A stretch of DNA of 64,000 nucleotides from Planctomycetota bacterium (GTDB lineage: Bacteria; Pseudomonadota; Gammaproteobacteria; Eutrophobiales; Eutrophobiaceae). The notes beneath the pieces were generated by a model, which did not search any database, was not told where the DNA came from, and worked only from the letters and a program-made list of their open reading frames with translations. How positions within the stretch are numbered: the stretch's first letter is position 1; each line of letters opens with the position of its first letter. Shown here in pieces: positions 6,170 through 19,845 of this stretch. The DNA is taken from NCBI GenBank assembly GCA_047638675.1, contig JBLIML010000001.1:13822-77821 (forward strand). The letters are read 5' to 3'. The position numbers and the translations under genes are program-made.

Positions 6170-6457
6170 TTACTCACTAACCTCGACACCACGCCAGAAA
6201 GCGATGTGCCCTTCTATATTCTTTGCTGCATCTTTGGTTTGAGGATAGTACCAGGCAGCATCCTTGTTCACTTCATCCTTCACTGTAATATGATAGTAGT
6301 TGGCTTCGCCCTTCCACGGACAGTTCGTGTGCTTATCACTGTCGCTGAAGTGCTCTTTGTTTATTGCACTAGCAGGAAAATAGATATTGCCTTCCACCGT
6401 TTCGAACATATCGCTTTCCGCCAGTATTACGCCGTTCCAGCTTGCTCTTGCCATCAC
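6170..6457 (-). CDS. DUF427 domain protein.
   Basis: 95 aa. The conserved WNGVILAES...YFP...CPWKG...YY pattern matches the DUF427 family. Confidence 0.7.
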   Translation of the reverse strand: MMARASWNGVILAESDMFETVEGNIYFPASAINKEHFSDSDKHTNCPWKGEANYYHITVKDEVNKDAAWYYPQTKDAAKNIEGHIAFWRGVEVSE

Positions 6458-6480: not shown

Positions 6481-6897
6481 TCACTCACCATACACGGTGA
6501 GAATAATTTGTCGCGTGTGTGACTGGGTTCTGTGCTCCCATAGATAGATGCCTTGCCAGGTTCCCAACATACAACGCCCTCCGCTTATGGGTATGGTCAA
6601 GCTACTATCCGTTAATATGCTGCGTACATGAGCAGACATATCATCCGGTCCTTCGGCAACATGACGAAACATCGCATCTCCATCAGGCACTAGTTTTTGC
6701 ATAAATGTTTCCAGATCCCCACGCACAGAAGCATCTGCATTTTCACATAGCATCACCGAAGCGCTGGTATGTTGAATGAATACATTACACAAGCCCTGGG
6801 CTATTCCGCTACTGCTAACAAACGCATCTATCTGAGAACTAATCTCTGTACTACCACGACCACTTGTTCTAACTACTATCGTTTCTTGTTTTACCAT
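6481..6897 (-). CDS. yjbQ: YjbQ/UPF0047 family protein (secondary thiamine-phosphate synthase-like).
   Basis: 138 aa. Family-typical motifs: N-terminal TSASVMLCENAD, a DxxHVR stretch, and C-terminal GTWQGIYLWEHR. Confidence 0.8.
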   Translation of the reverse strand: MVKQETIVVRTSGRGSTEISSQIDAFVSSSGIAQGLCNVFIQHTSASVMLCENADASVRGDLETFMQKLVPDGDAMFRHVAEGPDDMSAHVRSILTDSSLTIPISGGRCMLGTWQGIYLWEHRTQSHTRQIILTVYGE

Positions 6898-7004
6898 TGG
6901 TTTGCGGCACCCTAATATTGCTGTCCTTAATTAATTAGTCAATATCCAACACGCTACTTATTCCCACGCGCGAGCGTGAGAATGAATAAGGCGATTTATA
7001 GAGT

Positions 7005-7424
7005 TCATTTCGATACATGGTCACTACTAATTATCCTGTCCGTAATTAAGCCATAAAAGCGACTCTCTCCTGTAAACAACCATCCCAGCTGCTCAAGACA
7101 GGCATTGCAAACTGCGACCTGCCAACAATAGCCAGGAAACCAACTATGACCCAGACTGGCTGGTCCCAACTCAGAACAACCTGTCGCGTTCTGATAACAG
7201 GCAAAACGAAAACTATGGCCGGCCGGATTGGTGCCATTATGAATATGACTTCCATTTTGATTTATAGCCTCTTCACTAACCGTTACCATTTCGTGGCATT
7301 TCCAACACAGTATTTTAATTCCTGCATCAGTAGGCGCAGGTTTAATTGCCGTGTTTTTTGAAGGCCTGGGCAAGGACGGTTGCGCTCTGAAGTGGTGCCA
7401 GGGCAAGCTCAGTTCCATATTCAC
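7005..7424 (-). CDS. Bacterial cereblon-like CULT-domain protein (thalidomide-binding-domain homologue).
   Basis: 139 aa. Two CxxC pairs (CWKC...CNAC) and the segment HSWFPGYCWQVAVCNACLEQLGWLF...GLITDRI align with human cereblon [24 protein letters not shown]...GLTRSAL, including the tri-Trp cage residues. Confidence 0.7.
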   Translation of the reverse strand: MNMELSLPWHHFRAQPSLPRPSKNTAIKPAPTDAGIKILCWKCHEMVTVSEEAINQNGSHIHNGTNPAGHSFRFACYQNATGCSELGPASLGHSWFPGYCWQVAVCNACLEQLGWLFTGESRFYGLITDRIISSDHVSK

Positions 7425-7614
7425 CTCCCGAATTAAATTGGACTATGTACTAACTATAGTCAATAATTAGTGACAATTGCTAAGAAAATTATTTCAAATT
7501 CCGGCTACTAATTTCCTTTTAAGACTTCTATTAACTTCTTTCTCCATGCACAATAGAAGTGTCTCCATGACTGCATATACTAAACAACTTTCGCTAAGCT
7601 TTTAAACAATAACA

Positions 7615-9606
7615 TTGATCACTATTTGCACCAATCTAGTTAAGACACTGCGATTAAGCCTGTTTGTTGTCATCGCCTGGTCATTAACCATCCCTTATGT
7701 CCTCGCTGACGACTCAAAACTCCTTGAGCAACGTAAACAGTACACTGCAGAAAAAAAGTCACTAAGTGCAGGGCATTTGAAGGCGTTTCAAAAAACGACC
7801 GATGAATTGAAAGATTATCCTTTATATCCCTACCTTCTTTATGACTTTCTAAGCCGTCGCCTTTGGAAGGTAGAAAATGCTGAAATTGTTGATTTTTTAA
7901 AAAACTATGGCGATTTGCCCAATGCGAACGACTTAAGACGTTCCTGGTTGAAACTGCTGATCAAACGCGGTCACTGGCAGACGTATGTTGACAACTATAC
8001 GCCACAGAGTGACAAGGTACTTCAGTGCTATCAATTAGTGGCACGCATCAAAACAAAAAATGAAGTCTATTTGCTGGAAGACATCCGCTCACTTTGGTTA
8101 ACTGGCGAATCTTTGCCACCAGAGTGTGATCCAGCCTTTGTTCTGCTTTATAAAAGCAATCTTTTAAGCGAGGAGGTGATTTGGCAGCGGATACGCCTGG
8201 CCATGGAAAACAATCAAACCGGTCTGGCGGCTTACATTGGCAGGCGACTCGATTCAGATCAGCAGCTTTGGGTGACGCGTTGGATAGCCATGCATAACAA
8301 CCCGTCAAAGCATACTCTTAATCCTGAATACGAGGACAGACCACTAGCACGTGAGATCCTGTTACACGGTATGCATCGCCTGGTAAGACAGAATATTAAT
8401 CATGCACTGTCCCGCTGGAACAATCTAAAATCAACATATAGTTTCTTACAAAGTGAAATCGATGAGTTCGAGGGCAAGCTGGCCATACATGCTGCCCGAA
8501 AAAATCATAAACAGGCAAAACAACTTCTGGATAACATTGCCTTTACTGAGGTTGATGAGGAAATCCTGCACCTGCGATTACGTATTGCACTGGATGACGA
8601 GGATTGGGACACAATAATTAAATGGACCACGGGTGAACCCACAGATGAGGGAATTCGTTTGCGCTGGTTCTACTGGCGAGCACGAGCTTTTGAAGAGACC
8701 GGGAACGTCGCCAGCGCGAATGAGATATACAAATGGCTAGCAAAAGAGCGTGATTATTACGGTTTTCTCGCGGCAGATCGTATCGATGCCCCCTATCAGA
8801 TGAACTATCACCCCTTGCCCGAGAATCTGGAAGAGTGGCGAAAATTAACAACGATGCCAGGCATTGCCCGTGCCCGGGAACTCTACCTACTTGGTTCACA
8901 TTATTCCGCCCGCAGAGAATGGCATCATAACCTGACTCAACTAACCAGCTACCAGATACAGATAGCCGCTACGATTGCAGCCAGTTGGGGTTGGCATGAT
9001 CGCGCGATTATTACGCTGGCCAAAGCTGAAATTTACGACGATCTTGTAACGCGTTTTCCACTACCGTTTAATAGCACAATAGAACAGTTTTCCAAAATGA
9101 GAAATCTGGATATCGGTTGGATGTATGCTTTGACACGCGCGGAAAGTGCTTTCATGGAAGACGTGCGCTCACCCGCCGGGGCACTGGGCTTGATGCAGAT
9201 CATGCCTGCGACGGGTAAATATGTGGCCAAGAATATTGGATTGCGAAATTATGATACCAGGCAGTTGTCACAATCGAACATTAATGTGCGCATTGGCAGT
9301 GCTTATTTAAAACAGATGTATGATAATTTTAATAAAAACACCGTGCTGGCAACCGCTGCTTATAACGCCGGACCGACAAATGTAAAACGTTGGTTGCCAA
9401 AAAGTAATTGTGAACAAGCCGATGTCTGGATAGAGAAAATACCTTTCACCGAAACAAGAAAATATGTCCGCCGGATTCTTTTTTTCGCCAGCGTTTACGA
9501 TTGGCGAATGAAGCGCGAGATAATCCCGATTCAAAAACGAGTTACTTTGATTCAGCCGAACAAACAAATACTTGCGAGCAAAAGTTGTCCCGTAGGAAAA
9601 GCATGA
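7615..9606 (+). CDS. slt: Soluble lytic murein transglycosylase (Slt70-like).
   Basis: 663 aa. N-terminal signal peptide, a long superhelical N-domain, and a C-terminal lysozyme-like domain with ESAF...GLMQIMPAT and AYNAGP motifs. Confidence 0.85.
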   Translation: MITICTNLVKTLRLSLFVVIAWSLTIPYVLADDSKLLEQRKQYTAEKKSLSAGHLKAFQKTTDELKDYPLYPYLLYDFLSRRLWKVENAEIVDFLKNYGDLPNANDLRRSWLKLLIKRGHWQTYVDNYTPQSDKVLQCYQLVARIKTKNEVYLLEDIRSLWLTGESLPPECDPAFVLLYKSNLLSEEVIWQRIRLAMENNQTGLAAYIGRRLDSDQQLWVTRWIAMHNNPSKHTLNPEYEDRPLAREILLHGMHRLVRQNINHALSRWNNLKSTYSFLQSEIDEFEGKLAIHAARKNHKQAKQLLDNIAFTEVDEEILHLRLRIALDDEDWDTIIKWTTGEPTDEGIRLRWFYWRARAFEETGNVASANEIYKWLAKERDYYGFLAADRIDAPYQMNYHPLPENLEEWRKLTTMPGIARARELYLLGSHYSARREWHHNLTQLTSYQIQIAATIAASWGWHDRAIITLAKAEIYDDLVTRFPLPFNSTIEQFSKMRNLDIGWMYALTRAESAFMEDVRSPAGALGLMQIMPATGKYVAKNIGLRNYDTRQLSQSNINVRIGSAYLKQMYDNFNKNTVLATAAYNAGPTNVKRWLPKSNCEQADVWIEKIPFTETRKYVRRILFFASVYDWRMKREIIPIQKRVTLIQPNKQILASKSCPVGKA

Positions 9607-9610
9607 ACCC

Positions 9611-10582
9611 ATGATAATAAGAAAGATCTGCATGCTAGGAGGGAGTGGCTTCGTTGGCCGCACTCTGGCGAACCAGTTGTATGCCGCAGGTTATCAGGTA
9701 AAAATCCTAACTCGTCATCGGGAGCCAAATCGAAATAATTTAATCGTGCTCCCTGAACTCGATCTGGTGGAAACAGACATTCATGATCAAAATAGCTTGA
9801 ACAGGCATTTCCGGGACTGCGATGCTGTGATTAACCTGGTCGGTATTCTAAACGAACGGGGTCGCAACGGCGCCGGTTTTCGACATGCGCATATTGAGTT
9901 GGTGGAGAAAATAATCCTGGCTTGCCATGAAAATGGTATTTCGCGCATCTTGCAAATGAGCGCACTGAACGCCGATGCAGAGAATGGCCCCAGTCATTAT
10001 CTGCGCAGCAAGGGCGAGGCCGAAAAGTTGTTGTTTGCTGAGGAGGGCCTGCAGGTAAGCTGTTATCGACCTTCGGTAATATTTGGCAGCAGCGACGATT
10101 TTTTTAATCGTTTTGCTCAATTATTGAAAATGATGCCTCTTATATTTCCACTAGCCTGCCCCCATTCGCGATTTGCGCCGGTTTTCGTTGAGGATGTTGC
10201 TGCGACTTTTGTAAGAACACTAACTGATCCCCACAGTTATGGAAAATCCTATTGCCTGTGTGGTCCTCTTAGTTACAGTCTGGAGGAGCTTGTGAAATAT
10301 ACTGCCACCTGTCTGAATATAAAGCGCCACATCTTGCCATTAACAAATAGCTTGTCTCGTTTGCAGGCCGCTGTATTTGATTTTGTGCCAGGCAAACCAT
10401 TTTCCACCGACAACTATCTGTCAACCAGGGTGGACAGCGTTTGCATGAGTAATGACCTGGCCAAACTGGGTATTACTGCAAGGGCCCTCGAGGGCGTCGT
10501 ACCCGAATACCTGGCAAATCGAAAACAACGGGCCCACTACCATGAATATCGTCAACAATCGCGTCGATCGTCCGGCATGTGA
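9611..10582 (+). CDS. NAD(P)-binding Rossmann protein of the NDUFA9-like, complex-I-associated family (epimerase/dehydratase fold).
   Basis: 323 aa. GGSGFVGR nucleotide-binding motif and the YxxxK region of the SDR-extended fold. The real start may be the internal Met at 9632. Confidence 0.7.
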   Translation: MIIRKICMLGGSGFVGRTLANQLYAAGYQVKILTRHREPNRNNLIVLPELDLVETDIHDQNSLNRHFRDCDAVINLVGILNERGRNGAGFRHAHIELVEKIILACHENGISRILQMSALNADAENGPSHYLRSKGEAEKLLFAEEGLQVSCYRPSVIFGSSDDFFNRFAQLLKMMPLIFPLACPHSRFAPVFVEDVAATFVRTLTDPHSYGKSYCLCGPLSYSLEELVKYTATCLNIKRHILPLTNSLSRLQAAVFDFVPGKPFSTDNYLSTRVDSVCMSNDLAKLGITARALEGVVPEYLANRKQRAHYHEYRQQSRRSSGM

Positions 10583-10676
10583 TTCAATCGGCATTCTGTT
10601 TGCTGAGGAATTCCTGGTTTCAAGTACAATAGCCCAGCAAATCCCTATGTGACATGAGCATATTCCCTCGATAAGA

Positions 10677-11897
10677 ATGAAAGTTTACAAAGTTGGCGGT
10701 GCTATACGCGATAAATTGCTAGGCCTGGCAGTTAAGGATCAGGACTGGGTTGTGGTTGGTAGCACGGCTCAACAACTGATTGATTTAGGTTATAAACCCA
10801 TCGGCAAAGATTTTCCGGTCTTTCTTCACCCCGATAGCAAGGAAGAATACGCCCTCGCCCGCACCGAAAGGAAAACCGCTCCTGGCTACAAGGGCTTCTC
10901 CTTTGACACAGATAAAAATGTCACTCTTGAAGAAGACCTGCAACGACGGGATCTGACAATCAACGCCCTCGCGGAAGACGAGCAATCCAATATTATTGAT
11001 TGCTTTAATGGTCGGGAGGATCTTGAGGCAGGTATTTTACGGCACATCTCTCCCGCTTTTACCGAAGATCCCCTGCGTGTTTTACGTGTGGCGCGTTTCG
11101 CCGCACGTTTCAATTTTCGGGTTGCCGATGAGACCAAAGTGCTAATGAAGGTTATCAGTGAATCGGGTGAACTCGACACGCTTGTTGCTGAACGTGTCTG
11201 GACCGAACTTGAACGTGCACTTTGTGAAGCCTTCCCTGTGCGTTTCTTCGAAGTACTTCGAGAATGCGGTGCGCTGAAACGGGTTTTCCCGGAAATAGAT
11301 CGTCTGTTCGGTATTCCCCAACCAGAAAAGCATCATCCTGAAATCGATTGCGGCATACACACTTTGATGGTCGTGGAACAGGCCTGCAAATTAACAAGCG
11401 ATCCCCTTATACGTTTCGCTGCACTGGTACATGATTTGGGGAAAGGCACGACACCTGAAGAACAATGGCCCAGCCACCGGGGTCATGAGGAACGAAGTGT
11501 CGGCTTAATTGAAAAAATGTGTGATCGCTATCGTATACCAAAAAGTTACCGAGGTCTGGCCGTCATTGTTGCCAGGCATCACCTTGATTGCCACCGTATC
11601 GCAGAAATGCGCCCGGACACTATATTGAGAAAGCTCGAGGCGATGGATGCTTTTCGCAGGCCGGATCGTTTTGAGCAGTTCCTCATCGCCTGTGAGGCAG
11701 ATATTCGGGGTCGCAAGGGATTCGAAGATCGAGATTACCCGCAAGCCGCGTATCTAAAAAGCGCGCTGGAAGCCGCGAGCGCTATAGATACGAGCAGTGT
11801 GCAAAAAGAGGCCATGAGTGGACCGGAAATCGCGCAGGTAATTGGCAAACTAAGAGTGGCTGCGATAGAAGAAGTTAGACGGCTGGCGAATAAGTAA
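10677..11897 (+). CDS. cca: Multifunctional CCA-adding tRNA nucleotidyltransferase with HD phosphohydrolase domain.
   Basis: 406 aa. N-terminal MKVYKVGGAIRDKLLG polymerase-beta-type head and an HD domain (HTLMV...HDLGK). Confidence 0.9.
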   Translation: MKVYKVGGAIRDKLLGLAVKDQDWVVVGSTAQQLIDLGYKPIGKDFPVFLHPDSKEEYALARTERKTAPGYKGFSFDTDKNVTLEEDLQRRDLTINALAEDEQSNIIDCFNGREDLEAGILRHISPAFTEDPLRVLRVARFAARFNFRVADETKVLMKVISESGELDTLVAERVWTELERALCEAFPVRFFEVLRECGALKRVFPEIDRLFGIPQPEKHHPEIDCGIHTLMVVEQACKLTSDPLIRFAALVHDLGKGTTPEEQWPSHRGHEERSVGLIEKMCDRYRIPKSYRGLAVIVARHHLDCHRIAEMRPDTILRKLEAMDAFRRPDRFEQFLIACEADIRGRKGFEDRDYPQAAYLKSALEAASAIDTSSVQKEAMSGPEIAQVIGKLRVAAIEEVRRLANK

Positions 11898-11933: not shown

Positions 11934-12320
11934 TTGTCGCCCTGAGCAACTAGACCTGCCGCCCTGAGCATCGTCGAAGGGTCTCGGGACGGAGGCATTG
12001 TTCACAAGATCTCTCCACTTCGGTCGAGATGACAGGTTCTTTTATTTCACCCTAAGCAAAGAGTATTGTCACCCTGAGCAAGTGACCTTGTCACCCTGAG
12101 CATCTAACCTTGTCACCCTGAGCATCGTCGAAGGGTCTCGGGACGGAGGCGGGGCTCGACATATCTCTCCACTTCGGTCGAGATGACAGGTTCTTTTTTT
12201 TCACCCTAAGCAAAGAGTTTTGTCACCCTGAGCAAGTGACCTTGTCACCCTGAGCAACGCCGAAGGGTCTCGGAGCGGAGGCGCCGCTCGCAAGATCTCT
12301 TGAACGCCGCTTGGTCTCTG
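11934..12320. repeat. Composite tandem-repeat array. About 9 copies of a 14-bp motif TGTCACCCTGAGCA (partly as 22-bp tandem units) interleaved with 2.5 copies of an ~75-bp module.
   Basis: The motif occurs at about 11934, 11956, 12046, 12066, 12088, 12110, 12198, 12219 and 12243. The module TCGTCGAAGGGTCTCGGGACGGAGGC...ATCTCTCCACTTCGGTCGAGATGACAGGTTCTTTT is repeated at 11970-12045 and 12124-12197, with a partial copy at 12258-12320. Each 22-bp unit carries a GTCAC...GTGAC hairpin. The array lies between convergent cca and uppP. Confidence 0.8.
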
Positions 12321-19768: not shown

Positions 19769-19845
19769 GGCTATGTAGCTCAGCTGGTTAGAGCGCGGCA
19801 TTCATAATGCTGAGGTCGGTGGTTCAAGTCCACCCATAGCCACCA
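19769..19845 (+). tRNA. tRNA-Met (elongator, anticodon CAU), 77 nt with an encoded CCA.
   Basis: Cloverleaf: acceptor GGCTATG/CATAGCC, D-arm GCTCAGCTGGTTAGAGC, anticodon loop TTCATAA, T-arm GGTGGTTCAAGTCCACC. Close to E. coli elongator tRNA-Met. Confidence 0.9.

What the first reader, a model, noticed from the sequence alone, without database searches (positions are those of the whole stretch)
7005..7424. Bacterial cereblon-like CULT-domain protein
The 139-aa product aligns residue by residue with the thalidomide-binding domain of human cereblon. Both CxxC zinc pairs are present. So is the aromatic-cage segment SWFPGYxWxVAxCxxCxxxxGWxF. Bacterial CULT-only proteins are uncommon and their ligands are unresolved. 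This one sits between a YjbQ/DUF427 pair and slt, divergent from slt. A 21-bp imperfect palindrome (GACTATGTACTAACTATAGTC, about 7440-7460) lies in its upstream region.
Basis: partly seen in the sequence, partly recalled or inferred. Interest (0 to 1): 0.6.

Follow-up and report, generated by a model that had tools for sequence, protein, structure and literature searches.

The report
Bacterial single-domain cereblon-like (CULT) protein
The gene encodes a small bacterial relative of the drug-binding domain of human cereblon, with the zinc site and three-tryptophan pocket intact; it belongs to a protein family described in 2014-2015, so it is a sound but ordinary find.

Summary
The ORF is real, but the true start is most likely the ATG at 7418 (137 aa), because the GTG at 7424 lies inside the ribosome-binding site.

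- **Family:** the product matches Magnetospirillum "cereblon isoform 4" (MsCI4) at E=5e-17. It matches the human cereblon thalidomide-binding domain at about 1e-11 to 2e-9.
- **Structure:** an AlphaFold model (pLDDT above 90 for residues 31-135) superposes on MsCI4 crystal structures at 0.9-1.7 A, TM 0.85-0.92.
- **Key residues:** both CxxC pairs, all three cage tryptophans, the Phe at the pocket floor and the N-P loop are present. All are invariant or nearly so in 120 homologues.
- **Named test:** PF03226 is the Yippee/Mis18 profile, not a CULT profile. It scores only E=0.11 here.
- **Palindrome:** it has only 6 of 10 complementary pairs, is at chance level and is not conserved. Only a TATAGT inside it, a candidate -10 box, is invariant in orthologous loci.
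- **Neighbourhood:** slt <> CULT-YjbQ-DUF427 recurs in many uncultured Gammaproteobacteria, often with TauE upstream, but not in other phyla.

Single-domain bacterial CULT proteins are already described, so this is a new member of a known kind. Its physiological role in bacteria remains unknown.

The parts
7005..7418 (-). CDS of the 137-aa CULT-only protein (stop codon included).
   Evidence: ORF. The identical 137-aa protein P0001 is called from this ATG in NCBI, JGI and Logan contigs. The start and SD align in orthologous loci.
7023..7316 (-). CULT domain (beta-tent fold), residues about 35-132.
   Evidence: phmmer against MsCI4 gives E=5e-17 over residues 36-130. AF2 pLDDT is above 90 for residues 31-135. 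Foldseek gives TMt 0.85-0.92 and rmsd 0.9-1.7 A against MsCI4.
7329..7418 (-). N-terminal tail, residues 1-30. It is predicted disordered, has no hydrophobic signal-like stretch, and carries a conserved aromatic residue at position 10.
   Evidence: pLDDT is below 50 for residues 1-30. F10 is conserved in 85% of 120 homologues.
7296..7307 (-). First CxxC pair (C38, C41) of the Cys4 zinc site.
   Evidence: Invariant in 120 of 120 homologues. Aligned with the first CxxC of MsCI4.
7098..7109 (-). Second CxxC pair (C104, C107), equivalent to human C391 and C394.
   Evidence: Invariant in 120 of 120 homologues. The numbering map is verified.
7074..7145 (-). Aromatic-cage segment S92-F115. W93, W99 and W113 correspond to human W380, W386 and W400. 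F115 corresponds to F402.
   Evidence: The three Trp are invariant in 120 of 120 homologues, and F115 is Phe in 109 and Tyr in 11. The alignment to MsCI4 and human CRBN is gapless here.
7224..7229 (-). [quoted passage not shown]
   Evidence: N is invariant and P is present in 119 of 120 homologues. The loop is described.
7424..7428 (-). Shine-Dalgarno GGAGG, 5 nt upstream of the ATG.
   Evidence: Read directly from the sequence. GAGGTGA is conserved in orthologous loci.
7453..7458 (-). TATAGT, a candidate -10 promoter element for the CULT gene.
   Evidence: Invariant in five orthologous slt-CULT spacers while the flanks vary. No good -35 element was found, so the promoter function is inferred only.
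7441..7461 (.). It is not supported as a functional element.
   Evidence: 6 of 10 pairs are complementary, and simulations put it at chance level. The arm distal to TATAGT is not conserved.
6481..6897 (-). yjbQ (UPF0047), 107 nt downstream on the same strand.
   Evidence: Pfam E=7e-41 and TIGR00149 E=4.6e-40. It follows CULT at -1 to 57 nt in about 10 related genomes.
6170..6457 (-). DUF427 gene, 23 nt after yjbQ on the same strand.
   Evidence: Pfam PF04248 E=1.8e-31. Profile hit to PDB 3djm at E=1.3e-13. Described as a beta-tent fold in PMC4287342.
7615..9606 (+). Divergent slt (soluble lytic murein transglycosylase) with a signal peptide.
   Evidence: Pfam SLT E=8e-26 and SLT_L E=6e-19. NF008631 E=1.4e-104, below its equivalog cut-off.

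Best explanation
The gene encodes a cytoplasmic, stand-alone CULT-domain protein of the bacterial "cereblon family".

**Shown.** It has a beta-tent fold held together by a Cys4 zinc site (C38, C41, C104, C107). It carries an intact ligand pocket made of three tryptophans (W93, W99, W113) over a Phe floor (F115), next to the conserved N64-P65 loop.

**Inferred from MsCI4 and human cereblon.** The pocket binds a small cyclic imide or lactam-like group of the glutarimide, succinimide or uracil type. That group could be a free metabolite or the C-terminal cyclic imide of a damaged protein.

**Shown.** The protein has no LON-like or DDB1-binding part. It therefore cannot act as a ubiquitin-ligase receptor and must work as a free-standing binding or sensor module.

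**Inferred.** It is probably transcribed from its own promoter (the conserved TATAGT). In related genomes it is probably co-transcribed with yjbQ and DUF427, and often with an upstream TauE-family permease.

Its physiological ligand and partners in bacteria are not known.
For: **Sequence similarity.**
- MsCI4 at E=5e-17; human CRBN TBD at 1e-11 to 2e-9.
- BLASTP against verified human residues 319-442 gives E=2e-13.

**Fold.**
- AF2 mean pLDDT is 82, and above 90 across residues 31-135.
- The top 50 Foldseek PDB hits are all MsCI4 or CRBN, with TMt up to 0.92 and rmsd about 1 A.

**Residues.**
- All four Cys, all three Trp and N64 are invariant in 120 homologues.
- P65 is present in 119 of 120, and F115 is Phe or Tyr in all.

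**Ligand chemistry of homologues.**
- PDB entries show MsCI4 bound to thalidomide, deoxyuridine, glutarimides, lactams and dihydrouracil compounds.
- The pocket contacts are described in PMC8900816.
- Cyclic imide degrons are described.

**Real gene.**
- The identical protein occurs on 4-5 independent metagenome contigs.

**Operon-like spacing in relatives.**
- TauE to CULT is 4-86 nt in 24 of the 25 loci that have TauE upstream (126 nt in the other).
- CULT to YjbQ is -1 to 57 nt in about 10 loci.
- YjbQ to DUF427 is mostly -4 to 42 nt.
Against: - No binding was measured, and I could not inspect the model coordinates for pocket geometry.
- G90 replaces the Glu equivalent to human E377 and MsCI4 E76. 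That Glu is present in 107 of 120 homologues and contacts some ligands, so specificity or affinity may differ.
- Pfam and NCBIfam give no significant hit.
- In this window CULT and yjbQ are 107 nt apart. The gap holds a hairpin (6957-6990) and a promoter-like site (6942 to 6914), so co-transcription here is uncertain.
- The gene-order conservation is confined to one gammaproteobacterial clade and may be plain synteny.
Confidence: 0.85

Rival explanations
1. It is an enzyme rather than a passive binder. It would use the beta-tent scaffold catalytically, as MsrB and GFA do, for example to open cyclic imides or perform redox chemistry, with the extra conserved His and Cys residues acting in catalysis.
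For: Relatives with the beta-tent fold include the enzymes MsrB and GFA (PMC4287342). Weak SelR and GFA Pfam hits appear in a few family members. H58, H60, C74 and C81 are 79-98% conserved in the bacterial family, but by ungapped alignment they are absent from human CRBN. Some MsCI4 crystal entries contain hydrolysis products of soaked compounds (titles).
Against: No catalytic activity has been reported for MsCI4 in the papers read. The window protein itself has no SelR or GFA hit. MsCI4 lacks the equivalent of C81 (alignment). IMiD-type ligands are inherently unstable and hydrolyse under moderate conditions (abstract of PMC10641816).
Confidence: 0.08
2. It is a Yippee/Mis18-like zinc-binding beta-tent protein that mediates protein or nucleic-acid contacts and has no small-ligand cage function.
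For: The only Pfam family touched is PF03226 Yippee-Mis18, at E=0.11 for this protein and down to 1.2e-7 in homologues.
Against: The hit is far below the cut-off (13 versus 26.6 bits). Matches to solved CULT domains are 10-16 orders of magnitude better. The tri-Trp cage is invariant in the family; Lupas et al. report these three tryptophans as highly conserved in the CULT core group, declining toward the periphery of the wider family.
Confidence: 0.03
3. With YjbQ, DUF427 and (in relatives) TauE, it forms one functional module, and the CULT protein is its ligand-recognition subunit.
For: The same-strand order is conserved, with gaps of 0-60 nt, in many gammaproteobacterial MAGs. CULT-DUF427 or CULT-YjbQ adjacency persists where the third gene is missing. 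DUF427 is a second beta-tent family.
Against: All linked loci carry Gammaproteobacteria-type labels. CULT genes in Desulfobacterota, Acidobacteriota and Myxococcota have other neighbours. YjbQ homologues from other lineages lack CULT, at 0-1 of 28 per identity band. CULT and DUF427 show no sequence relation (hhalign probability 0.2%). This window lacks TauE.
Confidence: 0.12

Closest known systems
MsCI4 (MGR_0879, "cereblon isoform 4") of Magnetospirillum gryphiswaldense; PDB 4v2y and many others
   Same: - Single-domain bacterial CULT protein of similar size (124 versus 137 aa).
- About 35-40% identity, E=5e-17.
- Same Cys4 site, tri-Trp cage and N-P loop.
- The predicted structure superposes at about 1 A.
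   Different: - The pocket floor is Phe, as in human, not Tyr101.
- The residue before S-W-F is His, as in human H378, not Phe77.
- Gly replaces Glu76.
- It has an extra conserved Cys (C81).
- The disordered N-terminal tail is longer.
- The host is a gammaproteobacterium, not an alphaproteobacterium.
Thalidomide-binding (CULT) domain of human cereblon, residues about 318-442
   Same: - The pocket motif HSWFPGYxWxVAxCxxCxxxxGWxF is the same.
- N351-P352 is conserved.
- Same fold; Foldseek E about 1e-8 to 1e-9.
   Different: - No LON-like domain and no DDB1-binding region, so no CRL4 ubiquitin-ligase context.
- Ala in place of H353 and Gly in place of E377.
- Only about 33% identity over 75 aligned residues.
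Yippee / Mis18 (Pfam PF03226)
   Same: A beta-tent zinc-binding fold and the nearest related family in sequence space (PMC4287342). There is a weak profile hit.
   Different: The hit is below the Pfam threshold (E=0.11). This protein carries the intact three-tryptophan cage that marks the CULT core group.
Secreted animal CULT-only proteins (Lupas et al. 2015, group II)
   Same: They consist of the CULT domain alone.
   Different: [quoted passage not shown] This protein has a polar, disordered N-terminus without one (sequence).

Membership tests
CULT domain / bacterial cereblon family | Significant sequence similarity to established CULT domains | tested here: met
   phmmer gives E=5e-17 against MsCI4 and 1e-11 to 2e-9 against human CRBN. 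BLASTP against human CRBN gives E=2e-13.
CULT domain / bacterial cereblon family | Two CxxC motifs forming the Cys4 zinc site | tested here: met
   C38/C41 and C104/C107 are present and invariant in 120 homologues. Zinc occupancy itself cannot be tested here.
CULT domain / bacterial cereblon family | Three invariant tryptophans of the aromatic cage, plus an aromatic floor residue | tested here: met
   W93, W99 and W113 align without gaps to W380, W386 and W400, and F115 aligns to F402.
CULT domain / bacterial cereblon family | [quoted passage not shown] | tested here: met
   N64-P65-A66-G67. N is invariant, P is in 119 of 120 and G is in 96%.
CULT domain / bacterial cereblon family | Beta-tent fold | tested here: met
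   AF2 pLDDT is above 90 over the domain. Foldseek gives TMt 0.85-0.92 against MsCI4.
CULT domain / bacterial cereblon family | Binding of thalidomide, glutarimide or uridine-type ligands | not testable with these tools
   This needs purified protein, using FRET displacement, ITC or crystal soaking.
Cereblon proper (CRL4 substrate receptor) | N-terminal LON-like domain and DDB1-binding region | tested here: not met
   The protein has 137 aa. Residues 1-30 are disordered and the rest is the CULT domain.
Yippee/Mis18 (PF03226) | Score at or above the Pfam gathering threshold | tested here: not met
   E=0.11 and 13 bits against a cut-off of 26.6. No hit at E<=0.1.
MsrB (SelR, PF01641) and GFA (PF04828) | Profile match | tested here: not met
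   The window protein has no hit. Only 8-10 of 120 homologues give weak hits.
Known anti-phage defence proteins (PADLOC) | Profile match of CULT, YjbQ or DUF427 | tested here: not met
   No families at E<=0.01.

The most novel reading that the evidence does not exclude
The conserved same-strand cluster (TauE)-CULT-YjbQ-DUF427 of this gammaproteobacterial clade may be a real functional module. In it, two unrelated-in-sequence beta-tent proteins (CULT and DUF427) and YjbQ would together sense or process an imide- or uracil-like metabolite, or damaged protein C-termini. That would be the first genomic handle on what CULT domains do in bacteria.
Probability: 0.12. Interest if true: 0.6.

Novelty: new member of a known kind. 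Interest (0 to 1): 0.25.

Why it matters
Cereblon's CULT domain is the target of thalidomide-type drugs and of most clinical protein degraders. Bacterial homologues such as MsCI4 serve as structural surrogates for it. This protein's pocket is closer to the human one than MsCI4's at two positions: a Phe floor and His before S-W-F. It has an unusual Gly where nearly all relatives have Glu. It could therefore be a useful comparison protein. Its conserved neighbourhood offers a modest lead on the unknown bacterial role of the domain. It does not change what is known about the family.

Tried and rejected
1. **Pfam-A and NCBIfam scans of the protein.** No significant family was found, and PF03226 scored only E=0.11. 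I do not count this as evidence against CULT, because no dedicated CULT model turned up in either library and PDB sequence and fold matches are strong.
2. **Palindrome as operator.** Rejected. It has 6 of 10 complementary pairs, it is at chance level in simulations, and one arm is not conserved.
3. **Intrinsic terminator after the CULT stop.** The 6957-6990 hairpin folds, but it lacks a U-tract and the 113-nt gap has a z-score of only -1.26. The scanner found no terminator there.
4. **Defence-system membership.** No PADLOC hit.
5. **Sequence relation between CULT and the neighbouring DUF427.** hhalign probability is 0.2%, so there is no evidence of a diverged tandem duplicate.
6. **A universal CULT neighbour across phyla.** De novo clustering of flanking ORFs found none. 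An apparent 15-locus cluster was made of antisense ORFs overlapping the CULT gene itself.
7. **Multi-CULT proteins P0121 and P0266.** These are eukaryotic cereblon gene models with artefactual identical repeats.
9. **One uninformative literature search**.
10. **Rfam.** The only match in the whole window is a tRNA at 19769, far from this locus.

Full report
**Observation**

The window has an ORF at 7005..7424 on the minus strand, 139 aa from a GTG. Read on the coding strand, the upstream sequence is GGGAGGTGAATATG. The GTG sits inside a GGAGG Shine-Dalgarno sequence that lies 5 nt before an ATG at 7418.

The identical 137-aa product (P0001) is called from that ATG in NCBI, JGI and Logan assemblies on several independent contigs. 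The ATG and the GAGGTGA motif also align in five orthologous loci. I therefore take 7005-7418 as the CDS.

- yjbQ/UPF0047 at 6481-6897 (Pfam E=7e-41; TIGR00149 E=4.6e-40).
- DUF427 at 6170-6457 (E=1.8e-31).
- A divergent Slt70-type lytic transglycosylase at 7615-9606.

**What the protein is**

phmmer against all PDB sequences returns only cereblon entries. Magnetospirillum MsCI4 scores E=5.1e-17 over residues 36-130. Human and mouse thalidomide-binding-domain constructs score 1e-11 to 2.7e-9.

I checked a recalled human CRBN 319-442 sequence against the PDB and it is identical. I then aligned it to the window protein: E=2e-13, 33% identity. That alignment fixes the following map:

| Window residue | Human residue |
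|---|---|
| N64 | N351 |
| P65 | P352 |
| A66 | H353 |
| G90 | E377 |
| H91 | H378 |
| W93 | W380 |
| W99 | W386 |
| C104 | C391 |
| C107 | C394 |
| W113 | W400 |
| F115 | F402 |

A profile search found 236 homologues in the word-indexed database. Exhaustive HMMER found 2,165 clusters at 50% identity with E<=1e-3. Several sources name these proteins "cereblon family protein" or "CULT domain-containing protein".

In an alignment of 120 homologues, the four Cys, the three Trp, N64, F94, G112 and F121 are invariant. P65, H60, G67 and F115 are nearly so.

AlphaFold2 with that alignment gives pLDDT above 90 for residues 31-135 and a disordered N-terminal 30 residues. The best 50 Foldseek PDB matches are all MsCI4 or CRBN, with TM-scores normalised to the target of 0.85-0.92 and rmsd of 0.9-1.7 A for the MsCI4 chains.

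The family is described in Lupas et al. 2015 (PMC4287342). That paper covers single-domain prokaryotic CULT proteins, mainly from delta-proteobacteria with a few alpha and gamma members. The window protein is a typical member in length (the mode is 132-137 aa) and in residues.

Pfam-A gives no hit at E<=0.1. At E<=10 it gives only PF03226 Yippee-Mis18, at E=0.11 and 13 bits against a cut-off of 26.6. PF03226 is the sister family's model, not a CULT model. It matches 119 of the 120 homologues, but mostly weakly. This failure says something about the profile, not about the protein.

**Departures from the family**

- G90 replaces a Glu found in 107 of 120 homologues (human E377, MsCI4 E76). This protein is the only one of the 120 with Gly there. 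That Glu contacts extended ligands in MsCI4 (PMC8900816).
- The pocket floor is Phe and the residue before S-W-F is His. Both are as in human CRBN, and both differ from MsCI4 (Tyr101, Phe77).
- The bacterial family conserves H58, H60, C74 and C81 at 79-98%. By ungapped alignment these are absent from human CRBN. Their role is unknown, and I could not inspect the model coordinates.

**Mechanism**

What is shown:
- The fold.
- The zinc-ligand set.
- An intact cage.
- The absence of a LON-like or DDB1-binding region.
- The absence of a signal peptide.

What is inferred from homologues: the cage binds a cyclic imide or lactam-like ring. MsCI4 structures exist with thalidomide, deoxyuridine, glutarimides, valerolactam and dihydrouracil compounds. 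C-terminal aspartimide and aminoglutarimide are now regarded as physiological ligands of CRBN.

In a bacterium without CRL4, the protein must act as a free-standing binder or sensor. I found no paper that addresses the bacterial role.

**Surroundings**

A scan of species-level genomes found relatives in 232 genomes, and 80 loci were fetched.

Within MAGs labelled Gammaproteobacteria, the order NAD-epimerase - slt <> CULT - YjbQ - DUF427 recurs. About 35 loci have slt, 26 have YjbQ and 25 have DUF427. The neighbours are 50-83% identical to the window's, while CULT is only 32-53% identical.

In 25 of these loci a TauE-family permease sits just upstream on the same strand. The gaps are as follows:

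| Junction | Gap |
|---|---|
| TauE to CULT | 4-86 nt in 24 loci, 126 nt in one |
| CULT to YjbQ | -1 to 57 nt in about 10 loci; about 495-534 nt in 12 others |
| YjbQ to DUF427 | mostly -4 to 42 nt |

CULT genes in Desulfobacterota, Acidobacteriota, Myxococcota and Betaproteobacteria lack these neighbours.

The reverse test used 80 metagenome loci fetched through YjbQ. CULT lay upstream in every locus whose YjbQ was at least 65% identical, but in only 1 of 28 loci at 60-65% identity and 0 of 28 at 50-60%. Those other loci also lacked an adjacent slt and DUF427.

The linkage is therefore conserved within one clade. It is compatible with an operon there, but it cannot be separated from inherited synteny. 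In this window, TauE is absent and CULT and yjbQ are 107 nt apart. That gap holds a hairpin without a U-tract and a promoter-like site.

The window's DUF427 is homologous to the structure they used (3djm, E=1.3e-13). The two families show no sequence relation (hhalign probability 0.2%).

**Palindrome**

GACTATGTACTAACTATAGTC lies at 7441-7461. Only the outer six positions pair. In Markov simulations of the 196-bp, 31% GC spacer, 71% of sequences contain at least one 6-bp inverted repeat with a spacer of 20 nt or less.

I aligned the slt-CULT spacers of the window and four orthologous loci. Only TATAGT (7458 to 7453 on the gene's strand) is invariant inside the palindrome, and the other arm varies freely. 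TATAGT lies about 24 nt upstream of the Shine-Dalgarno sequence and about 35 nt upstream of the ATG, and is a plausible -10 box. I found no convincing -35 element.

The same alignment shows an invariant 10-mer, ATTGTGCATG (plus strand 7545-7554), of unknown role.

**Verdict**

The finding is correct and well observed, but it concerns a family that has been known since 2014-2015. One member of that family has dozens of crystal structures. I rate it as a new member of a known kind, with interest 0.25.

The most novel reading still open is that the clade-conserved (TauE)-CULT-YjbQ-DUF427 cluster is a functional module that would reveal the bacterial role of CULT. I put that at about 0.12.

Noticed in passing
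window 6170-6457 (-) with 7005-7418 (-): DUF427, two genes downstream of CULT on the same strand, is itself listed as a beta-tent fold family in Lupas et al. 2015. Two beta-tent proteins therefore share one conserved cluster. hhalign finds no sequence relation between them (probability 0.2%).
   Followed up: partly
window 7149-7151 (-), residue G90: Gly replaces the Glu equivalent to human E377 and MsCI4 E76. That Glu is present in 107 of 120 homologues, and this is the only Gly among the 120. The same protein is seen on several independent contigs, so a sequencing error is unlikely.
   Followed up: partly
window residues H58, H60, C74, C81 (about 7176-7247, minus strand): Two His and two Cys are 79-98% conserved in the bacterial family. 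By ungapped alignment they are absent from human CRBN, and MsCI4 lacks the C81 equivalent. They could form a second metal site or a redox site. I could not check the geometry.
   Followed up: no
window 7545-7554: An invariant 10-mer, ATTGTGCATG on the minus strand (CATGCACAAT on the plus strand), occurs in the slt-CULT spacer of five orthologous loci. A conserved TGAAG follows it about 17-20 nt downstream on the same strand. Its role is unknown; it may be a regulatory site for slt or for CULT.
   Followed up: partly
window 7389-7391 (-), residue F10: An aromatic residue (F10, inside a MxL....YxF-type motif) is conserved in about 85% of homologues, although the N-terminal 30 residues are predicted disordered. 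It may be a short linear motif.
   Followed up: no
L005, L014, L018, L019, L026, L035, L040, L046, L047, L055, L072, L080, about 10400-10900: In 12 related genomes a spacer of about 0.5 kb separates CULT from yjbQ. In 11 of them it holds a conserved ORF of about 147 aa on the opposite strand. That ORF was not called as a gene in the one annotated record.
   Followed up: no
L037, L045, L049, L052, L063, L074, L081: In these loci the CULT gene lies next to an asparagine-synthetase-like (AsnB-type) gene; the record titles label five of them Desulfobacterota-type MAGs, one Deltaproteobacteria and one Acidobacteria. In five of these, plus two other loci, an EF-G paralogue is also nearby. This is a different lineage-specific neighbourhood.
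   Followed up: partly
window 11934-12258: A tandem repeat of a 154-bp unit, 2.1 copies, 90% matching. It contains 22-nt sub-repeats (TTGTCACCCTGAGCA...).
   Followed up: no
window 6957-6990: A GC-rich hairpin (CTTATTC..CACGC GCGA GCGTG..GAATAAG) lies just after the CULT stop codon. It has no U-tract and is not significant against shuffles.
   Followed up: yes
P0121 and P0266 (not in the window): Proteins of 1,737 and 1,022 aa with 22 and 4 CULT matches. They are eukaryotic cereblon gene models with identical tandem fragment repeats, most likely assembly or annotation artefacts.
   Followed up: yes
window 19769-19845 (+): A tRNA-Met (CAT) gene, the only Rfam or ARAGORN hit in the 64-kb window.
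   Followed up: no
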